Shown here: positions 36,752 to 52,924 of the stretch, piece by piece
Numbering within the stretch: position 1 is the stretch's first letter
How the letters are laid out: each line of letters starts with the position of its first letter
Assembly: GCA_027077875.1 (NCBI GenBank)
Contig: JALWRB010000313.1
Coordinates: forward strand, 1-52,924
Length of the DNA stretch: 52,924 bases
Direction of reading: 5' to 3'
DNA from: Candidatus Heimdallarchaeota archaeon
Lineage (GTDB): Archaea; Asgardarchaeota; Heimdallarchaeia; Heimdallarchaeales; Kariarchaeaceae
Translations under genes and position numbers: made by a program
The notes under the pieces: model-generated
The model's database searches: none
What the model was told of the DNA's origin: nothing
The model's input: the letters and a program-made list of their open reading frames with translations, nothing else

Positions 36752-38896
36752 ATGACTTTAAACAAGAAGTTCCCCCAGAGAATCTCACGGCTAGCAGAGC
36801 TCTCTACCAACCTCTGGTGGAGTTGGGATCATCGAGGAAGATCGTTATTCAGGAATCTTGATTACCCCATGTGGATGGAAATGAAGCATAATGTCATGGG
36901 AATTCTCAACAACATCGATGAGAAGACCCTAGAGGAGAAGGCAGAAGACCCCCAGTTCCAGAGCCAGTACAACGAGGTGATGAGAGCCTTCGACGACTAT
37001 CGTAAGCTTGAGAATCGGTGGTACGCGAAGAACATCGCCCCAAATACATCTATTGGACTTGAGCACCCAGTAGCATATTTCTCTTTCGAGTTCGGACTTC
37101 ACCAGTCACTTCCTATCTACTCGGGAGGTCTGGGTGTACTGGCAGGGGATATCTGTAAAGAATCCTCGGACCTAGGTCTCCCGTTTGTAGCGGTAGGCTT
37201 CTTCTACAAAGAGGGGTACTTTACACAGAGAGTTCCCCCTCATGGATGGCAGGAATCAGACTTCATCGAGACAGAATTGGATGACCTCCTAATTCTCCCC
37301 GTGATGGATGGAGATGAAAGGATGAAGCTTAGGGTCAAGCTTGCAGATTCAGAGGTGTGGATCCAAGTATGGTTAGTAAACGTGGGGAATGTCAAACTTT
37401 ACCTGATGGACACCGATATCGATGACAACGACCCATGGTTCAGAGGGCTTACTGCAAGACTATATGGCGGTGACCACAACATGAGACTCCATCAGGAGAT
37501 GCTCTTCGGAATTGCAGGGGTCTCATTATTGGAAAAGCTTGGGGTCCAACCTTCAGTATGGCACCTTAATGAGGGGCATTGCAGTTTCATCTCTATCGAG
37601 AGGATATCTAGGTTGACAAGAAATGGAACCAGTTTCGAGAAAGCACTCGCAGATGTCAGAGCCACCACGATATTCACCACACACACACCTGTTCCCGCTG
37701 GTCACGACCGCTTCGACATCGACCATGTAGCCCAAAAGATGCAGGACAAGATCACCGAACTTGGAATTAGTAGAGAGGAGTTTCTCAAGCTGGGTATAAA
37801 ACCCGATGGAGACCAGCGTCTCTTCAACATGACGGTGTTGGGTATCAAGACCGCTCACCTTGTGAACGGGGTGAGCAAGCTCCATACAAAGGTCACCGAA
37901 GAGATGTGGAAGACCCTGCTTGAGGAATACAACGATAGGACTAAGCTAATTGACATAACCAACGGGGTACACCTCCCGACCTTCTTATCAGGACCGATGA
38001 GAAGATTATATGACAAGTACCTCGGTGAGGACTGGGTGGATAAGCAGGACGATAAGGAGCTTTGGAAGCAGGTTGAGAGTATCCCCGATGATGAATTCTG
38101 GGAGGTCAGACTTCAGGTCAAGAAGAGATTGCTGGAGCAGATACGCGAGACAGCTAGACAATTGCGGAAAAACGGGGACATGGGTGCAGATCAAATCTTG
38201 GCCTATGGCGTTTTTCTCAATCCAGAGGCACTCACAGTGGGCTTCGCCCGAAGGTTTGCTACATACAAACGCGCAAATCTCATTTTCAGCGATCTCTCAC
38301 GAGTACGGAAGCTGTTCAATGACAAGTACCATCCCCTCCAGCTCATCTTTGCAGGGAAGGCACATCCTGCGGACGAGCCCGGGAAGCACCTCTTGCAGAA
38401 GGTATATGAGCAAGCCATGGATAAGGCGAATTCAGGCAGAGTTGCTTTTATCGAGAACTACGACATGCACATCGCTCGCTTTCTTGTGCAGGGAGTTGAT
38501 GTATGGCTGAACAATCCGATCCGTCCCTACGAAGCTTCCGGGACATCAGGTATGAAGGCAGCGGCAAATGGAGTCCCACATCTCTCTACTCTTGACGGAT
38601 GGTGGGCTGAAGGATTCGTCGGAGACAATGGATGGGTGATTGGAGATGGTAAGGAGTTTGAGGATAGGGAAGAGCAGGACGCACACGATGTCAATTCCCT
38701 CTATGATATCCTCGAGAATGAAGTCGTGCCCATGTACTACGATATGGAAGACGGGATTTCTAAGAGATGGGTCCGAATAGCTAAACGATCTGTCGCTGAG
38801 GCCATCCCGAACTTCTCTGCCACAAGAATGATCAAGGACTATGTCCACAAAATGTACGTACCGACCATCAGGAATTTTGAGAAGATCAACTCATAA
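36752..38896 (+). CDS. glgP: Alpha-glucan (glycogen/maltodextrin) phosphorylase
   Basis: VAYFSFEFGL..SLPIYSGGLGVLAGD, HLNEGH, FTTHTPVPAGHD, RRFATYKRA, FAGKAHP and the PLP site EASGTSGMKA. Confidence 0.96.
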   Translation: MTLNKKFPQRISRLAELSTNLWWSWDHRGRSLFRNLDYPMWMEMKHNVMGILNNIDEKTLEEKAEDPQFQSQYNEVMRAFDDYRKLENRWYAKNIAPNTSIGLEHPVAYFSFEFGLHQSLPIYSGGLGVLAGDICKESSDLGLPFVAVGFFYKEGYFTQRVPPHGWQESDFIETELDDLLILPVMDGDERMKLRVKLADSEVWIQVWLVNVGNVKLYLMDTDIDDNDPWFRGLTARLYGGDHNMRLHQEMLFGIAGVSLLEKLGVQPSVWHLNEGHCSFISIERISRLTRNGTSFEKALADVRATTIFTTHTPVPAGHDRFDIDHVAQKMQDKITELGISREEFLKLGIKPDGDQRLFNMTVLGIKTAHLVNGVSKLHTKVTEEMWKTLLEEYNDRTKLIDITNGVHLPTFLSGPMRRLYDKYLGEDWVDKQDDKELWKQVESIPDDEFWEVRLQVKKRLLEQIRETARQLRKNGDMGADQILAYGVFLNPEALTVGFARRFATYKRANLIFSDLSRVRKLFNDKYHPLQLIFAGKAHPADEPGKHLLQKVYEQAMDKANSGRVAFIENYDMHIARFLVQGVDVWLNNPIRPYEASGTSGMKAAANGVPHLSTLDGWWAEGFVGDNGWVIGDGKEFEDREEQDAHDVNSLYDILENEVVPMYYDMEDGISKRWVRIAKRSVAEAIPNFSATRMIKDYVHKMYVPTIRNFEKINS

Positions 38897-38934
38897 TCAG
38901 CATCATTATTAATTCTGGATTTCCTCTTGAGGTA

Positions 38935-51005: not shown

Positions 51006-51111
51006 TTTAATTCAACCACACACAATCTAAGCTTTCATTTTCTTTAACATCGGCAGGTTTTATAAGAACTAGTAGATTTTGAGCTAGTTAACCGAGAAAG
51101 GAGAGCAGAGT

Positions 51112-52924
51112 ATGACAGGTGATGTTCAAGAATCCGTAGATCCAATGGACAAGTTTCGAATTGGCTCTGGGAGACCAGTTGGTGTTGCAATTAGAGTATT
51201 CAGAAAGAGATTTGTTGATAGAATACTCCCTAACATACGGTTTGGAATTATTATTGGCCTTGTACTCTATATCGCGGGATACATCATCATACCCTTCCTC
51301 TCACAGAAAGAGACTAGTTTCGGGCTCCGCTCAAATTATTATGAATCACCATTATTTTTCATCACACTTGGATCTATTCTGTTCGGGTTCTATCTTACGT
51401 TCCTACAGAGTATCGAAGGGGATGAGTTCTTGAGGTACTCCCTTCTATTTCTATTGGGTGTTTTACAAATAGTTATTCCCTTTCAAAGAATTTGGCAGCT
51501 GAGGTATTTTTATCAGACATCAGATAATTCCTATGTATACTATGATGGACCACCTCTTATTCCAGAAGGCTGGAGACCAATAGTGAATCCACTTATCAAG
51601 TTTCCAGGTACTCCAAGTTACTACACGAGAGTAGAGGGCTACCAACCTTTCATTCTCCTAGGAGCATTACTGATTATAGTCTCAGGAGTGATAACAGTAT
51701 TACTCTCCTCATATTTCATTTACAAGGAGAGAAGAGGTCAACTGGTGAATTACTCTGATGACCTGGGATCACTCTCTGATGCACAATTGACCTTTGAGGT
51801 AGATTGGAAATACCTGTCTATTGTCATGACTACACTCTTCATGATTCTTTCTGTGATCCTTCTGACGAACAGCAATGAGTTCGTCATCTTGATTGGAGTG
51901 GGGATAGCCATCTTAGCCATGTACCTCTTCAAGCAGGGAGGATACAGATTTGGAGAACCTGATGAGGATTATGCCGAACTCCTTCCAATGTTTACTTACC
52001 AAAAAGGCAAGAGAACCCACTCATTCAACCGGATTTTGCAGGTAGCAGGATATCTCGGGATTATAGGAGTCGTGTTTGTGTTCCTCGGTCTTGAGGGGAT
52101 AGTTGGCATGCGAACCTTCCTCTCACAACCAGGATACATCTACACCATCGCGGTATCAATGCACATTACTTACCTCTCATTCGACCCCTCATTCAGGTTC
52201 AGGCTCTCACAGTCAAAGCTCGCTTATGGTTTCGTGATGCCGACTGTCCTGATGTTGATCTTTGAGCTCTACATCCCAATACTGGTCGCACTCTACCTCT
52301 CCTTCCAGAACATAAGAACAAGGTCCTATGCGTACTACTCCTTAACTTTGCGAAATGAGAATGTTGGTTTCGAGAACTATAGGTTCCTCATCAATACGGA
52401 TTTGGTATGGATTGCGATGTTCTTCTTCATCCCGTTATTGCTGGCAAAGTACGCTTGGAGCTATGCAGACACGATTGACCTATGGGCAGCGAGAAACTTC
52501 TCTAAACTCCTCATAGTAGCAACTCTCATATCCATAAATATATGGATTATAGGAAGAATCTTTGTCCCGAGTTACGAGGCATTCATTGACGAAAAATCAT
52601 CACTTTTCATTGATCCCTCACCTGTACCAGTGTTCAGGAACACTGTGATCTGGACCTTAGCGAGTGTGGTCTCCCATCTGATTTTGGGAACCCTTCTTGC
52701 CCTTCTGATGAATACTGAATTCAGGGGTAGAGGAGTAGCTCGTGCAATTATGATTATTCCTTGGGCAGTGCCTAACTTTATTACAATTTCGATTTTCGGG
52801 GCATTCATCTTCGACAATGAGGCCGGAGCAATAAATATGATACTAAATCTGCTTCATCTACCAACTACACTGTGGATGAATTCGGACAATATTCTAATGA
52901 CTGCTATCCTGGTCAATATCTGGC
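51112..52924 (+). CDS. Carbohydrate ABC transporter permease (MalF-like) with a large N-terminal membrane extension; 3'-truncated
   Basis: I translated the frame from ATG 51112 and it is open to the window end (~604 codons); it is absent from the ORF track. AYGFVMP..L...YIP...LYLSF, VGFENY, FRNTVIWT...LG..LALLMN..FRGR...RAIMIIPWAVP and AILVNIW. The EAA motif would lie beyond the window. Confidence 0.9.
   Translation, partial: MTGDVQESVDPMDKFRIGSGRPVGVAIRVFRKRFVDRILPNIRFGIIIGLVLYIAGYIIIPFLSQKETSFGLRSNYYESPLFFITLGSILFGFYLTFLQSIEGDEFLRYSLLFLLGVLQIVIPFQRIWQLRYFYQTSDNSYVYYDGPPLIPEGWRPIVNPLIKFPGTPSYYTRVEGYQPFILLGALLIIVSGVITVLLSSYFIYKERRGQLVNYSDDLGSLSDAQLTFEVDWKYLSIVMTTLFMILSVILLTNSNEFVILIGVGIAILAMYLFKQGGYRFGEPDEDYAELLPMFTYQKGKRTHSFNRILQVAGYLGIIGVVFVFLGLEGIVGMRTFLSQPGYIYTIAVSMHITYLSFDPSFRFRLSQSKLAYGFVMPTVLMLIFELYIPILVALYLSFQNIRTRSYAYYSLTLRNENVGFENYRFLINTDLVWIAMFFFIPLLLAKYAWSYADTIDLWAARNFSKLLIVATLISINIWIIGRIFVPSYEAFIDEKSSLFIDPSPVPVFRNTVIWTLASVVSHLILGTLLALLMNTEFRGRGVARAIMIIPWAVPNFITISIFGAFIFDNEAGAINMILNLLHLPTTLWMNSDNILMTAILVNIW

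What the first reader, a model, noticed from the sequence alone, without database searches (positions are those of the whole stretch)
36752..52924. Complete Sus-like alpha-glucan capture locus built from C-terminally anchored archaeal surface proteins
Seen: one contiguous locus encodes a GH57 amylopullulanase, a second secreted GH57, a non-catalytic CBM/PKD protein and a MalE-like binding protein, all with signal peptides and similar C-terminal tails, plus an ABC permease and cytoplasmic GlgP + MalQ. No glycogen synthase or GlgC lies in the window. Known: MalP+MalQ is the cytoplasmic maltodextrin route in E. coli. Thermococcales pair a membrane-anchored GH57 Apu with a maltodextrin ABC system. 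Bacteroides Sus uses non-catalytic surface starch binders (SusE/F). Inference: this is a bind-cut-import-phosphorolyse system. It adds a SusE/F-like binder and a second surface enzyme to the Thermococcus design, in a probable Asgard archaeon where I know of no such described system.
Basis: partly seen in the sequence, partly recalled or inferred. Interest (0 to 1): 0.8.

Follow-up and report, generated by a model that had tools for sequence, protein, structure and literature searches.

The report
Asgard archaeal starch-uptake gene cluster
An uncultured Asgard (Heimdall-group) archaeon carries a conserved gene cluster that most likely cuts starch-like sugars at the cell surface, imports the pieces and breaks them down inside. 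It is a new variant of a system already known from Thermococcus, with two extra, uncharacterised surface proteins.

Summary
Window 36752-52924 encodes a cytoplasmic alpha-glucan phosphorylase and a GH77 MalQ. It also encodes four exported, C-terminally anchored proteins: a GH57 amylopullulanase, a second GH57, a PKD protein with no catalytic domain, and a MalE-like binding protein. A MalF-like permease is cut by the contig end.

The locus is not complete in the window. A sibling assembly shows MalF-MalG-MalK and a third, cytoplasmic GH57 following. The whole gene order recurs in a relative with 64-78% identical proteins, and its transporter / 776-aa protein / GH57 core recurs in a 44% relative on a contig that ends there. 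Simpler versions occur in about 7 of 301 Asgard genomes.

The core design is the known Thermococcales maltodextrin (mdx/MD) cluster, so "Sus-like" is only an analogy. Three things are new:
- the Asgard host;
- an unnamed GH57 subfamily with invariant HANQ / FWNPER / QDMEAWGLW motifs;
- a nearly orphan 776-aa surface protein always placed between transporter and amylopullulanase.

Its "CBM" label rests only on sub-threshold hits, though all are to starch or glycogen-binding modules. Structure prediction failed. The C-terminal tails are a genome-wide feature, not a locus signature. Expression could not be tested. Verdict: real, a new variant of a known kind, moderate interest.

The parts
36752..38896 (+). 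Cytoplasmic alpha-glucan (maltodextrin/glycogen) phosphorylase, GT35, 714 aa. No signal peptide. The PLP-lysine motif EASGTSGMK is present (K602).
   Evidence: TIGR02094 scores 800 bits over its cut-off. The Thermococcales MalP model NF041129 scores 746 bits, below its 1500 cut-off. DUF3417 and Phosphorylase are the Pfam hits. It lies next to the binding protein and Apu in G003, G008, G010 and L101.
38935..40410 (+). Cytoplasmic GH77 4-alpha-glucanotransferase (MalQ/amylomaltase), 491 aa. Candidate catalytic residues are D292, E339 and D394.
   Evidence: PF02446 scores 578 bits and NF011080 scores 664 bits, over its cut-off. The motifs RIDH, AEDLG and THDN were located; their assignment as catalytic is from knowledge of GH77.
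40388..42802 (-). Second exported GH57 ('GH57b'), 804 aa. It has a signal peptide, a GH57 catalytic domain and a roughly 400-aa region with no significant family match apart from a weak Big_7 hit. These are followed by an S/T linker and a C-terminal TM anchor. Predicted nucleophile E158 (42329-42331) and acid/base D273 (41984-41986).
   Evidence: PF03065 scores 95 bits. No NCBIfam name applies. E158 aligns with the nucleophile E123 of T. litoralis 4-alpha-glucanotransferase 1K1W. The five motifs are essentially invariant in 36 relatives, with conservative substitutions in a few.
42835..46815 (-). Surface GH57 amylopullulanase-type enzyme, 1326 aa. It has a signal peptide and a GH57 catalytic domain (about 45109-46626) with E342 (45790-45792) and D450 (45466-45468). 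A Glucodextran_C domain follows (43588-44313), then Ig-like stalk domains, an S/T linker and a TM anchor.
   Evidence: PF03065 scores 168 bits and PF09985 scores 134 bits. The best solved relative is Aquifex aeolicus amylopullulanase (8ZYI family, E 4e-56). Its E256 and D352 align with WSPEQA and MDGENAW (PMC12106739). CSR-5 ends in WW, as described for amylopullulanases (PMC6037648). The protein falls in a clade of Asgard sequences.
46906..49236 (-). Non-catalytic surface protein, 776 aa. It has a signal peptide and four beta-rich modules (aa 45-568, 47533-49104). Modules M1 and M2 are candidate starch-binding modules. Two PKD domains follow (aa 585-740, 47017-47484), then an S/T linker and a TM anchor. 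It carries 17 N-glycosylation sequons.
   Evidence: PKD_4 and PKD are the Pfam hits. The N-terminal 551 aa have two relatives in 1.84 billion cluster representatives, one of them its own cluster. M1 and M2 hit only CBM_20, X25_BaPul_like and AMPK1_CBM, all below cut-off. M1 and M2 are weakly related to each other. The gene sits between the binding-protein operon and Apu in all three known loci.
49237..49439 (.). Divergent intergenic (promoter) region between the surface-protein operon and the transporter operon. Two blocks are conserved against the 68-78% relative. One is GATTCAATAGTGGGCGAATAG (49376-49396), followed by an A/T-rich TATA-like stretch.
   Evidence: Alignment with L101. The 21-mer is unique in the window. 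A regulatory role is inferred, not tested.
49440..51005 (+). MalE-like solute-binding protein, 521 aa. It has a signal peptide, no lipobox, an S/T linker and a C-terminal TM anchor.
   Evidence: SBP_bac_8 and SBP_bac_1 are the Pfam hits. Solved relatives include GacH acarbose/maltose binder (E 4e-26), T. litoralis TMBP (1EU8), Thermotoga MalE1-3 and P. furiosus maltodextrin-binding protein (1ELJ).
51112..52924 (+). MalF-like ABC permease, cut by the contig end. It is 734 aa in the sibling assembly. MalG (591 aa), MalK (362 aa) and a cytoplasmic 381-aa GH57 follow on contig C179 and in locus L100.
   Evidence: NF008232 MalF, E 4e-13. C179 begins inside MalG, followed by MalK with ABC_tran and OB_MalK, then a GH57. 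L100 shows the uninterrupted order with 100% identical proteins.

Best explanation
This is an alpha-glucan (starch, glycogen, pullulan, maltodextrin) utilisation cluster of a Heimdall-group Asgard archaeon. It is built on the same plan as the Thermococcales mdx/MD system.

Proposed steps:
1. At the cell surface, a membrane-tethered GH57 amylopullulanase cuts alpha-1,4 and alpha-1,6 bonds of polymeric glucan. A second tethered GH57 of an uncharacterised subfamily assists. So does a tethered non-catalytic protein that probably holds the polymer through starch-binding-like modules.
2. The tethered MalE-like protein captures the maltodextrins and delivers them to the MalFGK importer.
3. In the cytoplasm, GH77 MalQ disproportionates the maltodextrins. 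The phosphorylase then releases glucose-1-phosphate for glycolysis. A small cytoplasmic GH57 may help.

Shown here: gene content, intact catalytic motifs, export and anchor signals, and conserved gene order.
Inferred: substrates, binding by the 776-aa protein, co-expression, and the division of labour between the two surface GH57 enzymes.
For: Catalytic residues:
- The Apu catalytic dyad aligns with the experimentally defined E256 and D352 of Aquifex Apu (PMC12106739).
- Its CSR-5 ends in WW, the amylopullulanase fingerprint (PMC6037648).
- The GH57b nucleophile aligns with E123 of 1K1W. Its five motifs are essentially invariant in 36 relatives.
- The MalQ catalytic motifs and the phosphorylase PLP lysine are present.

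Topology and binding protein:
- Only the four surface proteins have signal-like N-termini and C-terminal anchors. They are also the richest in N-glycosylation sequons.
- The best solved relatives of the binding protein are all maltose, maltodextrin or acarbose binders.

Synteny:
- The full order GlgP-MalQ / GH57b-Apu-776aa / SBP-MalF-MalG-MalK / GH57c occurs in a 219-kb contig of a sibling assembly.
- It recurs, as far as the 18.7-kb contig reaches, in a relative with 64-78% identical proteins.
- The transporter / 776-aa protein / GH57 part recurs in a 44% relative.
- Modular versions occur in G003, G008, G010, G018, G203 and G219.
- GH57b relatives sit beside GH13 amylases, GH77, Glucodextran_C proteins and a debranching enzyme.

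No GT5 glycogen synthase was found in the genome. [quoted passage not shown]
Against: - No biochemical or expression evidence exists for any of these proteins.
- The specificity of GH57b is unknown, and GH57 also contains alpha-galactosidases.
- The glucan-binding role of the 776-aa protein rests on sub-threshold Pfam hits. Both structure models had mean pLDDT of 51, and fold and PDB profile searches gave nothing.
- No regulator and no shared operator were found.
- GlgP-MalQ form a separate, convergent transcription unit.
- The genome is only 80% complete, so the absence of glycogen synthesis genes is a weak negative.
- The phosphorylase scores below the cut-off of the Thermococcales MalP equivalog model.
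Confidence: 0.75

Rival explanations
1. The cytoplasmic half (phosphorylase, MalQ and the small GH57) serves turnover of the cell's own glycogen. It is only a neighbour of an otherwise separate surface and transport module.
For: GlgP-MalQ form their own transcription unit, convergent with the surface operon. These enzymes act on glycogen in many organisms. The genome is 80% complete, so a missed synthase is possible. The genome also holds two GH13 genes and a further cytoplasmic GH57.
Against: No GT5 glycogen synthase was found, while the same search rang in three archaeal control genomes. None of the four GH57 genes has the size of a GH57 branching enzyme. The phosphorylase stays next to the binding proteins and Apu in G003, G008, G010 and L101. 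In those relatives a GH57 glucanotransferase takes the place of MalQ in the same cluster.
Confidence: 0.1
2. The 776-aa protein is a general surface, adhesion or envelope protein that does not bind alpha-glucan. The locus would then be simply a Thermococcus-type cluster with one extra enzyme, with no SusE/F analogue.
For: No CBM model reaches its curated cut-off. Fold searches return only generic Ig-like sandwiches. PKD and Ig-rich anchored proteins are very common in this genome.
Against: All three known family members lie between the maltodextrin-type transporter and the amylopullulanase. Six independent scans of modules M1 and M2 hit only alpha-glucan-binding families out of 24,736 models: CBM_20, X25 and CBM48, with E from 0.002 to 0.03. 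Other Asgard loci carry a different non-catalytic surface protein at the same kind of position.
Confidence: 0.2
3. The cluster is a mis-binned or recently transferred bacterial island and says nothing about Asgard biology.
For: Outside close relatives, the nearest amylopullulanase homologues in the public genome collection are bacterial, at 27-32% identity: Chloroflexota, Thermotogota and Spirochaetota. The cluster is patchy, present in about 7 of 301 Asgard genomes.
Against: The same contig carries NMD3, a RIO kinase and an archaeal SRP RNA directly upstream of glgP. The locus recurs on a 219-kb contig. The eight Asgard amylopullulanases form one supported clade (SH-aLRT 98), next to Thermotogota and Poseidoniales sequences. 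The proteins use the anchor style typical of this genome. G+C of the region (0.44-0.51) lies within the range of the contig.
Confidence: 0.03

Closest known systems
Thermococcales maltodextrin (mdx / MD, 'Mal-II') system. Examples are P. furiosus PF1938-PF1933 and T. barophilus TERMP_01653-01658. It works together with cytoplasmic 4-alpha-glucanotransferase and maltodextrin phosphorylase.
   Same: A binding-protein-dependent ABC importer (E, F, G, K) is clustered with a large exported GH57 amylopullulanase (PMC2246101, PMC10667668). The cytoplasmic route is glucanotransferase plus phosphorylase; this route is from my own knowledge of T. litoralis. Some Asgard relatives even carry the Thermococcus-type GH57 glucanotransferase with PF09094 and PF09095.
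   Different: Here GH77 MalQ replaces the GH57 glucanotransferase. A second exported GH57 of an unnamed subfamily and a non-catalytic 776-aa surface protein are added. The phosphorylase is inside the cluster. No TrmB-type regulator is seen nearby. The binding protein is only distantly related to PF1938 (1ELJ, E 2.5e-8). The host is a mesophile-type Asgard MAG, not a hyperthermophile.
Bacteroides thetaiotaomicron starch utilisation system (SusCDEFG)
   Same: The logic is shared. A surface-tethered amylase works beside tethered non-catalytic proteins built of tandem beta-sandwich modules. Oligosaccharides are handed to a dedicated importer and broken down further inside the cell.
   Different: There is no SusC TonB-dependent transporter, no SusD, no outer membrane and no lipoprotein anchors. 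The enzyme is GH57, not GH13. Uptake is by an ABC transporter. Glucan binding by the non-catalytic protein is unproven. This is an analogy only.
Gram-positive polysaccharide utilisation loci and cell-wall-anchored amylases with CBM arrays (my own knowledge)
   Same: The cells have a single membrane. Anchored multi-domain amylases with binding modules sit next to a MalEFG-type ABC importer.
   Different: Anchoring is by a C-terminal transmembrane helix after an S/T-rich stalk, not by sortase to a cell wall. The enzymes are GH57, not GH13.
Aquifex aeolicus GH57 amylopullulanase (PDB 8ZYI and related; PMC12106739)
   Same: It is the closest solved catalytic domain (E 4e-56). The five conserved regions and the E/D dyad are shared.
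   Different: The Aquifex enzyme is 477 aa with the catalytic domain only. The window protein adds about 850 aa: Glucodextran_C, Ig-like stalk domains, a linker and a membrane anchor.

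Membership tests
Thermococcales-type mdx/MD maltodextrin cluster | Binding protein, two permeases and a MalK-type ATPase clustered with an exported GH57 amylopullulanase | tested here: met
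   The window supplies the binding protein, MalF and Apu. MalG and MalK (OB_MalK) follow on C179 and in L100.
Thermococcales-type mdx/MD maltodextrin cluster | Orthology of the transporter genes with mdxEFGK | tested here: inconclusive
   The binding protein matches P. furiosus maltodextrin-binding protein 1ELJ only at E 2.5e-8. It matches bacterial GacH better, at E 4e-26. No tree was built.
Thermococcales-type mdx/MD maltodextrin cluster | Induction by maltodextrin or starch, with TrmB-family control | not testable with these tools
No regulator gene lies next to the locus, and no shared operator was found.
Bacteroidota Sus / PUL | Adjacent SusC (TonB-dependent transporter) and SusD pair | tested here: not met
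   None of the locus proteins has such domains. Uptake genes are ABC-type.
GH57 amylopullulanase | Five conserved regions with nucleophile Glu (CSR-3) and acid/base Asp (CSR-4), and CSR-5 ending in two Trp | tested here: met
   The motifs are HQHQP (68), GQLEL (271), WSPEQA (E342), MDGENAW (D450) and AEGSDWFWW (561). The fingerprints follow PMC12106739 and PMC6037648.
GH57 amylopullulanase | [quoted passage not shown] | not testable with these tools
   This needs an enzyme assay.
GH57 (second enzyme, GH57b) | GH57 fold with catalytic Glu and Asp present | tested here: met
   PF03065 scores 95 bits. E158 aligns with E123 of 1K1W. FWNPER and QD(M/A)E are essentially invariant in 36 relatives. 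The Asp assignment is by motif position, not by structure.
GH57 (second enzyme, GH57b) | [quoted passage not shown] | not tested
   No NCBIfam model matches. CSR-1 reads HANQ rather than HxHQP. I had no reference set of the Janecek groups to place it.
CBM20-like starch-binding module (776-aa protein, modules M1 and M2) | Match to a curated starch-binding-module model above its cut-off | tested here: not met
   CBM_20 scores 16.5 bits against a cut-off of 23.3 (E 0.0075). X25_BaPul_like has E 0.002-0.03 and AMPK1_CBM has E 0.017. All are below cut-off, and they are the only families hit.
CBM20-like starch-binding module (776-aa protein, modules M1 and M2) | Beta-sandwich fold with aromatic binding platforms | tested here: inconclusive
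   AlphaFold gave beta-strands but a mean pLDDT of 51 in both runs. Foldseek returned only generic Ig-like hits with E above 0.07. PDB profile searches were empty.
GH77 amylomaltase (MalQ) | Full-length GH77 domain with the Asp/Glu/Asp catalytic motifs | tested here: met
   PF02446 covers 1-463 of 465 positions at 578 bits. NF011080 is over its cut-off. D292, E339 and D394 lie in RIDH, AEDLG and THDN.
GT35 alpha-glucan phosphorylase | Family model over its cut-off and the PLP-binding lysine | tested here: met
   TIGR02094 scores 800 bits against a cut-off of 192. K602 lies in EASGTSGMK. The protein is not an equivalog of Thermococcales MalP (746 bits against 1500).
Archaeosortase-processed (PGF-CTERM type) surface proteins | PGF-type motif before the C-terminal helix, and an archaeosortase gene in the genome | tested here: not met
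   The four locus proteins have no PGF motif. PF09721 was not found in the genome. This is a weak negative, because the control search rang in only one of the control genomes and the genome is 80% complete.

The most novel reading that the evidence does not exclude
Part of the Heimdall-group Asgard archaea would be primary degraders of particulate alpha-glucan, using a cell-surface 'amylosome'. In this reading the nearly orphan 776-aa protein founds a new family of starch-binding modules. The HANQ-type GH57 subfamily would have a specificity not yet described in GH57, for example attack on granular or branched substrates. That subfamily is found in Heimdall, Hod and Loki-type archaea, in Thermoplasmata and in a few bacteria. 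Both proteins would work with the amylopullulanase on long glycosylated stalks above a wall-less membrane.
Probability: 0.3. Interest if true: 0.6.

Novelty: new variant of a known kind. Interest (0 to 1): 0.45.

Why it matters
Asgard archaea are the closest known relatives of eukaryotes. The strains cultured so far are, to my knowledge, described mainly as peptide or amino-acid fermenters. The Heimdall-group papers I searched do not mention starch, glycogen or maltose use.

A conserved, apparently complete surface-to-cytoplasm route for alpha-glucans gives a concrete and testable prediction for enrichment. Starch, glycogen or pullulan could serve as the substrate for a Heimdall-group lineage.

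The locus also flags two protein families that could be characterised:
- an unnamed GH57 subfamily with both predicted catalytic residues conserved and distinctive motifs;
- a surface protein that may carry very divergent starch-binding modules.

The core logic is not new, which limits the surprise. It matches the Thermococcales maltodextrin system.

Tried and rejected
- AlphaFold on the full 776-aa protein and on modules M1-M2 used a three-sequence alignment. Both models had mean pLDDT of 51.
- Foldseek against the PDB gave only generic Ig-like matches. I draw no conclusion from them.
- Profile searches of M1, M2 and M1+M2 against PDB sequences returned nothing significant.
- An exhaustive HMMER search with the N-terminal 551 aa found two cluster representatives, one of them the protein's own cluster. 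A deeper alignment was therefore impossible.
- Taxonomy by names failed. The assembly accession is in no paper.
- I therefore rely on the 450-bit actin hit, named GH57b relatives and the kinship labels of the genome tool. The 'Heimdall / Kariarchaeaceae' label comes from earlier notes and is not independently proven.
- A search for a shared operator found none. The conserved 21-mer of the divergent promoter occurs once in the window, and there is no convincing palindrome.
- An archaeosortase search (PF09721) was negative but poorly controlled.
- I considered and rejected reading the G+C-rich stretch upstream of glgP as part of the locus. It is an SRP RNA.

Full report
**What is in the window**

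The window is one whole 52.9-kb contig (C313) of a 3.94-Mb assembly. The assembly has 539 contigs and is 80% complete. Between 36752 and the contig end there are seven long ORFs at exactly the coordinates given.

Pfam and NCBIfam assign them as follows:
- 36752-38896(+): alpha-glucan phosphorylase. TIGR02094 scores 800 bits. The Thermococcales maltodextrin phosphorylase model scores 746 bits, below its cut-off.
- 38935-40410(+): GH77 4-alpha-glucanotransferase, 578 bits.
- 40388-42802(-): an 804-aa GH57 protein.
- 42835-46815(-): a 1326-aa protein with GH57 and Glucodextran_C domains.
- 46906-49236(-): a 776-aa protein with two PKD domains and nothing else.
- 49440-51005(+): a family-1 solute-binding protein.
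- 51112-52923(+): a MalF-like permease that runs off the contig.

The four middle proteins have hydrophobic signal-like N-termini without a lipobox cysteine. Each also has an S/T-rich stretch, a C-terminal hydrophobic helix and a basic tail. The phosphorylase and MalQ have none of these. The surface proteins are also the richest in N-glycosylation sequons, up to 2.2 per 100 residues in the 776-aa protein against 0.2-0.6 in the cytoplasmic enzymes.

**Completing the locus**

The locus is cut by the contig end. Contig C179 of the same genome begins inside a MalG-type permease. It continues with a MalK-type ATPase (ABC_tran plus OB_MalK) and, on the other strand, a 381-aa GH57 without a signal peptide.

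An exact-sequence look-up of the 776-aa protein found the same locus uninterrupted on a 219.7-kb contig of a public assembly (L100). The order there is GlgP, MalQ / GH57b, Apu, 776-aa protein / binding protein, MalF (734 aa), MalG (591 aa), MalK / GH57c. All shared proteins are 99.8-100% identical. So the system is complete in the organism but not in the window.

**Are the enzymes intact?**

The closest solved relative of the large GH57 is the Aquifex aeolicus amylopullulanase (E 4e-56). Its experimentally defined nucleophile E256 and acid/base D352 align with E342 (WSPEQA) and D450 (MDGENAW) (PMC12106739). CSR-5 reads AEGSDWFWW, ending in the two tryptophans described as the amylopullulanase fingerprint (PMC6037648).

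The second GH57 aligns over its first 155 residues with T. litoralis 4-alpha-glucanotransferase. The alignment places its E158 on the nucleophile E123.

A search of 5.8 billion proteins found 36 relatives of this second GH57, nearly all unnamed or labelled 'hypothetical'. They come from Heimdall-, Hod- and Promethearchaeota-labelled MAGs, Thermoplasmata, Eisenbacteria and a record labelled [Eubacterium] cellulosolvens. In all of them five motifs are essentially invariant, with conservative substitutions in a few: HANQ, GQFExxGSTY, FWN(P/A)ER(V/C)W, QD(M/A)EAWGLW and QFEFGC. This is a coherent, catalytically competent GH57 subfamily with an unusual CSR-1. I could not place it among the named specificity groups.

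MalQ has the RIDH, AEDLG and THDN motifs. The phosphorylase has the PLP lysine. The best solved relatives of the binding protein are all maltose, maltodextrin or acarbose binders.

**The non-catalytic protein**

Its N-terminal 551 residues have only two relatives among 1.84 billion cluster representatives: its own cluster and a 44% identical protein. A 68% identical protein was found by the other search.

Profile comparison shows that modules M1 (aa 45-152) and M2 (155-280) are weakly related to each other. Scanned against Pfam at a relaxed threshold, M1 and M2 from the three homologues hit only three families:
- CBM_20 (E 0.0075-0.009, two of three M1 copies);
- Pullulanase X25 (E 0.002-0.03);
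- the AMPK glycogen-binding module (E 0.017).

All are below the curated cut-offs, and all are alpha-glucan-binding beta-sandwiches.

Two AlphaFold runs predicted beta-strands but with a mean pLDDT of 51. Foldseek and PDB profile searches were uninformative. The 'CBM' label is therefore a reasonable lead, not a result.

The position of the gene is stronger evidence that the protein belongs to the system. In all three known loci (100%, 68% and 44% identity) it lies between the binding-protein/permease operon and the amylopullulanase gene.

**Conservation across relatives**

The relative with 64-78% identical proteins (L101) has the same gene order as far as its 18.7-kb contig reaches, from MalG to GlgP. 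Among 301 genomes sampled across the phylum, a full-length amylopullulanase occurs in 7 and a GH57b-type gene in 6.

Where present, the amylopullulanase is always in a related cluster:
- G010: GlgP, two binding proteins, MalF, MalG, MalK, Apu.
- G003 and G008: two binding proteins, GlgP, Apu, a Thermococcus-type GH57 4-alpha-glucanotransferase (PF09094, PF09095) and a further conserved gene that in G018 matches APH, a kinase-like family.
- G018: a binding-protein gene with a second family-1 binding-protein-like gene beside it, Apu, the same glucanotransferase and kinase-like gene, and a non-catalytic anchored Glucodextran_C protein.
- G203 (another family): Apu, two binding proteins, MalFGK, a Glucodextran_C protein and GH57b.
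- G219 (a closed genome of another class): MalKGF, two binding proteins, Apu and a Glucodextran_C protein.
- G119: GH57b sits beside a GH77 MalQ.

Elsewhere, GH57b relatives sit beside GH13 amylases, a second GH57, a MalK-type transporter, a Glucodextran_C protein and a GDE_C debranching enzyme. The system is modular. The window version is the one that uses GH77 instead of the GH57 transferase and the 776-aa protein instead of (or as) the non-catalytic partner.

In a maximum-likelihood tree the eight Asgard amylopullulanases form one clade (SH-aLRT 98). That clade sits inside a supported group with Thermotogota and Poseidoniales sequences, apart from the large Chloroflexota/Actinomycetota group. 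Thermococcales sequences were not in the set.

**Whose genome?**

The contig carries NMD3 and a RIO kinase. It also carries an archaeal SRP RNA directly upstream of glgP. The genome encodes an actin homologue scoring 450 bits against Pfam Actin, which fits an Asgard archaeon.

Earlier notes of this scan call it a Heimdall-group (Kariarchaeaceae) genome. I did not prove that label independently.

**The tails**

The signal peptide plus S/T linker plus C-terminal helix plus basic tail design occurs on 101 of 2078 complete ORFs of at least 200 aa in this genome. It is the organism's general way of tethering surface proteins, not a mark of this locus. No PGF motif is present on the four proteins, and no exosortase-family gene was found. 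The latter is a weak negative.

**Mechanism**

The best-supported reading has three stages:
1. Surface depolymerisation by the tethered amylopullulanase. The second GH57 assists, and so, probably, does a glucan-holding protein.
2. Capture of maltodextrins by the tethered binding protein and import by MalFGK.
3. Cytoplasmic disproportionation by MalQ and phosphorolysis to glucose-1-phosphate.

No GT5 glycogen synthase was found in the genome, while the control search rang in three archaeal genomes. None of the four GH57 genes looks like a branching enzyme. This argues against a role in turnover of the cell's own glycogen, with the caveat of 80% completeness.

**Comparison with known systems**

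The core is the Thermococcales mdx/MD cluster. There an amylopullulanase gene sits between mdxEFG and mdxK, and the enzyme appears in the secretome on maltodextrin (PMC2246101, PMC10667668). Sus of Bacteroides is an analogy only, because there is no SusC/D pair.

In the searchable literature only three papers mention both 'Asgard' and 'amylopullulanase', and none describes such a locus. Papers on Heimdall-group genomes and cultures do not mention starch, glycogen or maltose. One metagenomic study lists a GH57 'alpha-amylase' without a signal peptide in Loki bins (PMC8072921).

**Verdict**

It is a new variant of a known kind of system in an interesting lineage. It includes two uncharacterised protein families worth testing. 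Expression and biochemistry remain untested.

Noticed in passing
window 36325-36630 (+): A divergent archaeal SRP (7S) RNA lies directly upstream of glgP. RF01857 scores 63 bits, below the gathering score of 96.5, with E 7.9e-14 and the full model length matched. The 101-aa ORF at 36311-36616(-) that overlaps it is therefore spurious.
   Followed up: partly
window 51112-52924 and L100 4133-8125: The permeases are unusually long. MalF is 734 aa and MalG 591 aa, with 742-753 and 588 aa in two relatives. In a same-family genome (G010) they are 499 and 514 aa. The extra N-terminal, TM-rich parts have no Pfam match.
   Followed up: no
window 1-5253 (+): A giant subtilase (Peptidase_S8, CARDB, more than 1750 aa) is cut by the contig start. 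It ends in VPGF plus a hydrophobic helix plus a basic tail, which is PGF-CTERM-like and differs from the tails of the glucan locus. No exosortase/archaeosortase family gene (PF09721) was detected in the genome.
   Followed up: partly
whole genome G000 (for example C251, C511, C527): About 5% of complete ORFs of at least 200 aa (101 of 2078) combine a signal-like N-terminus with an S/T-rich linker, a C-terminal helix and an R/K tail. A Pro-Leu/Phe often precedes the helix. This looks like a genome-wide surface-anchoring style.
   Followed up: partly
G000 contig C507:6707-8557 (-): This is a 616-aa cytoplasmic paralogue of the HANQ-type GH57 subfamily, with no signal peptide. Its motifs are LLHSN, FWNPERVW, YAQDTEAIGFW and SQFEFGC. 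The subfamily therefore has both exported and intracellular members in one genome.
   Followed up: no
L093 14601-15794, L097 18448-19902 (G018, G008; also G003): A conserved gene of about 400-480 aa follows the GH57 glucanotransferase in the relatives' clusters. The G018 copy matches APH, a kinase-like family (PF01636, E 2.5e-6); the G008 copy had no Pfam hit. It could be a sugar (maltose-type) kinase. It is absent from the window locus.
   Followed up: no
L110 11250-12527 and L111 3017-4291: A gene matching PF07745 (Glyco_hydro_53) sits immediately next to the GH57b-type gene in two unrelated records. One is from Hodarchaeales and one is labelled [Eubacterium] cellulosolvens. Both are in otherwise alpha-glucan contexts. 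This recurring pairing is unexplained.
   Followed up: no
window 49376-49410: The block GATTCAATAGTGGGCGAATAG plus a TATA-like stretch lies upstream of the binding-protein gene. It is conserved in the 68-78% relative while the surrounding intergenic DNA has diverged. It is a candidate promoter or operator and occurs only once in the window.
   Followed up: partly
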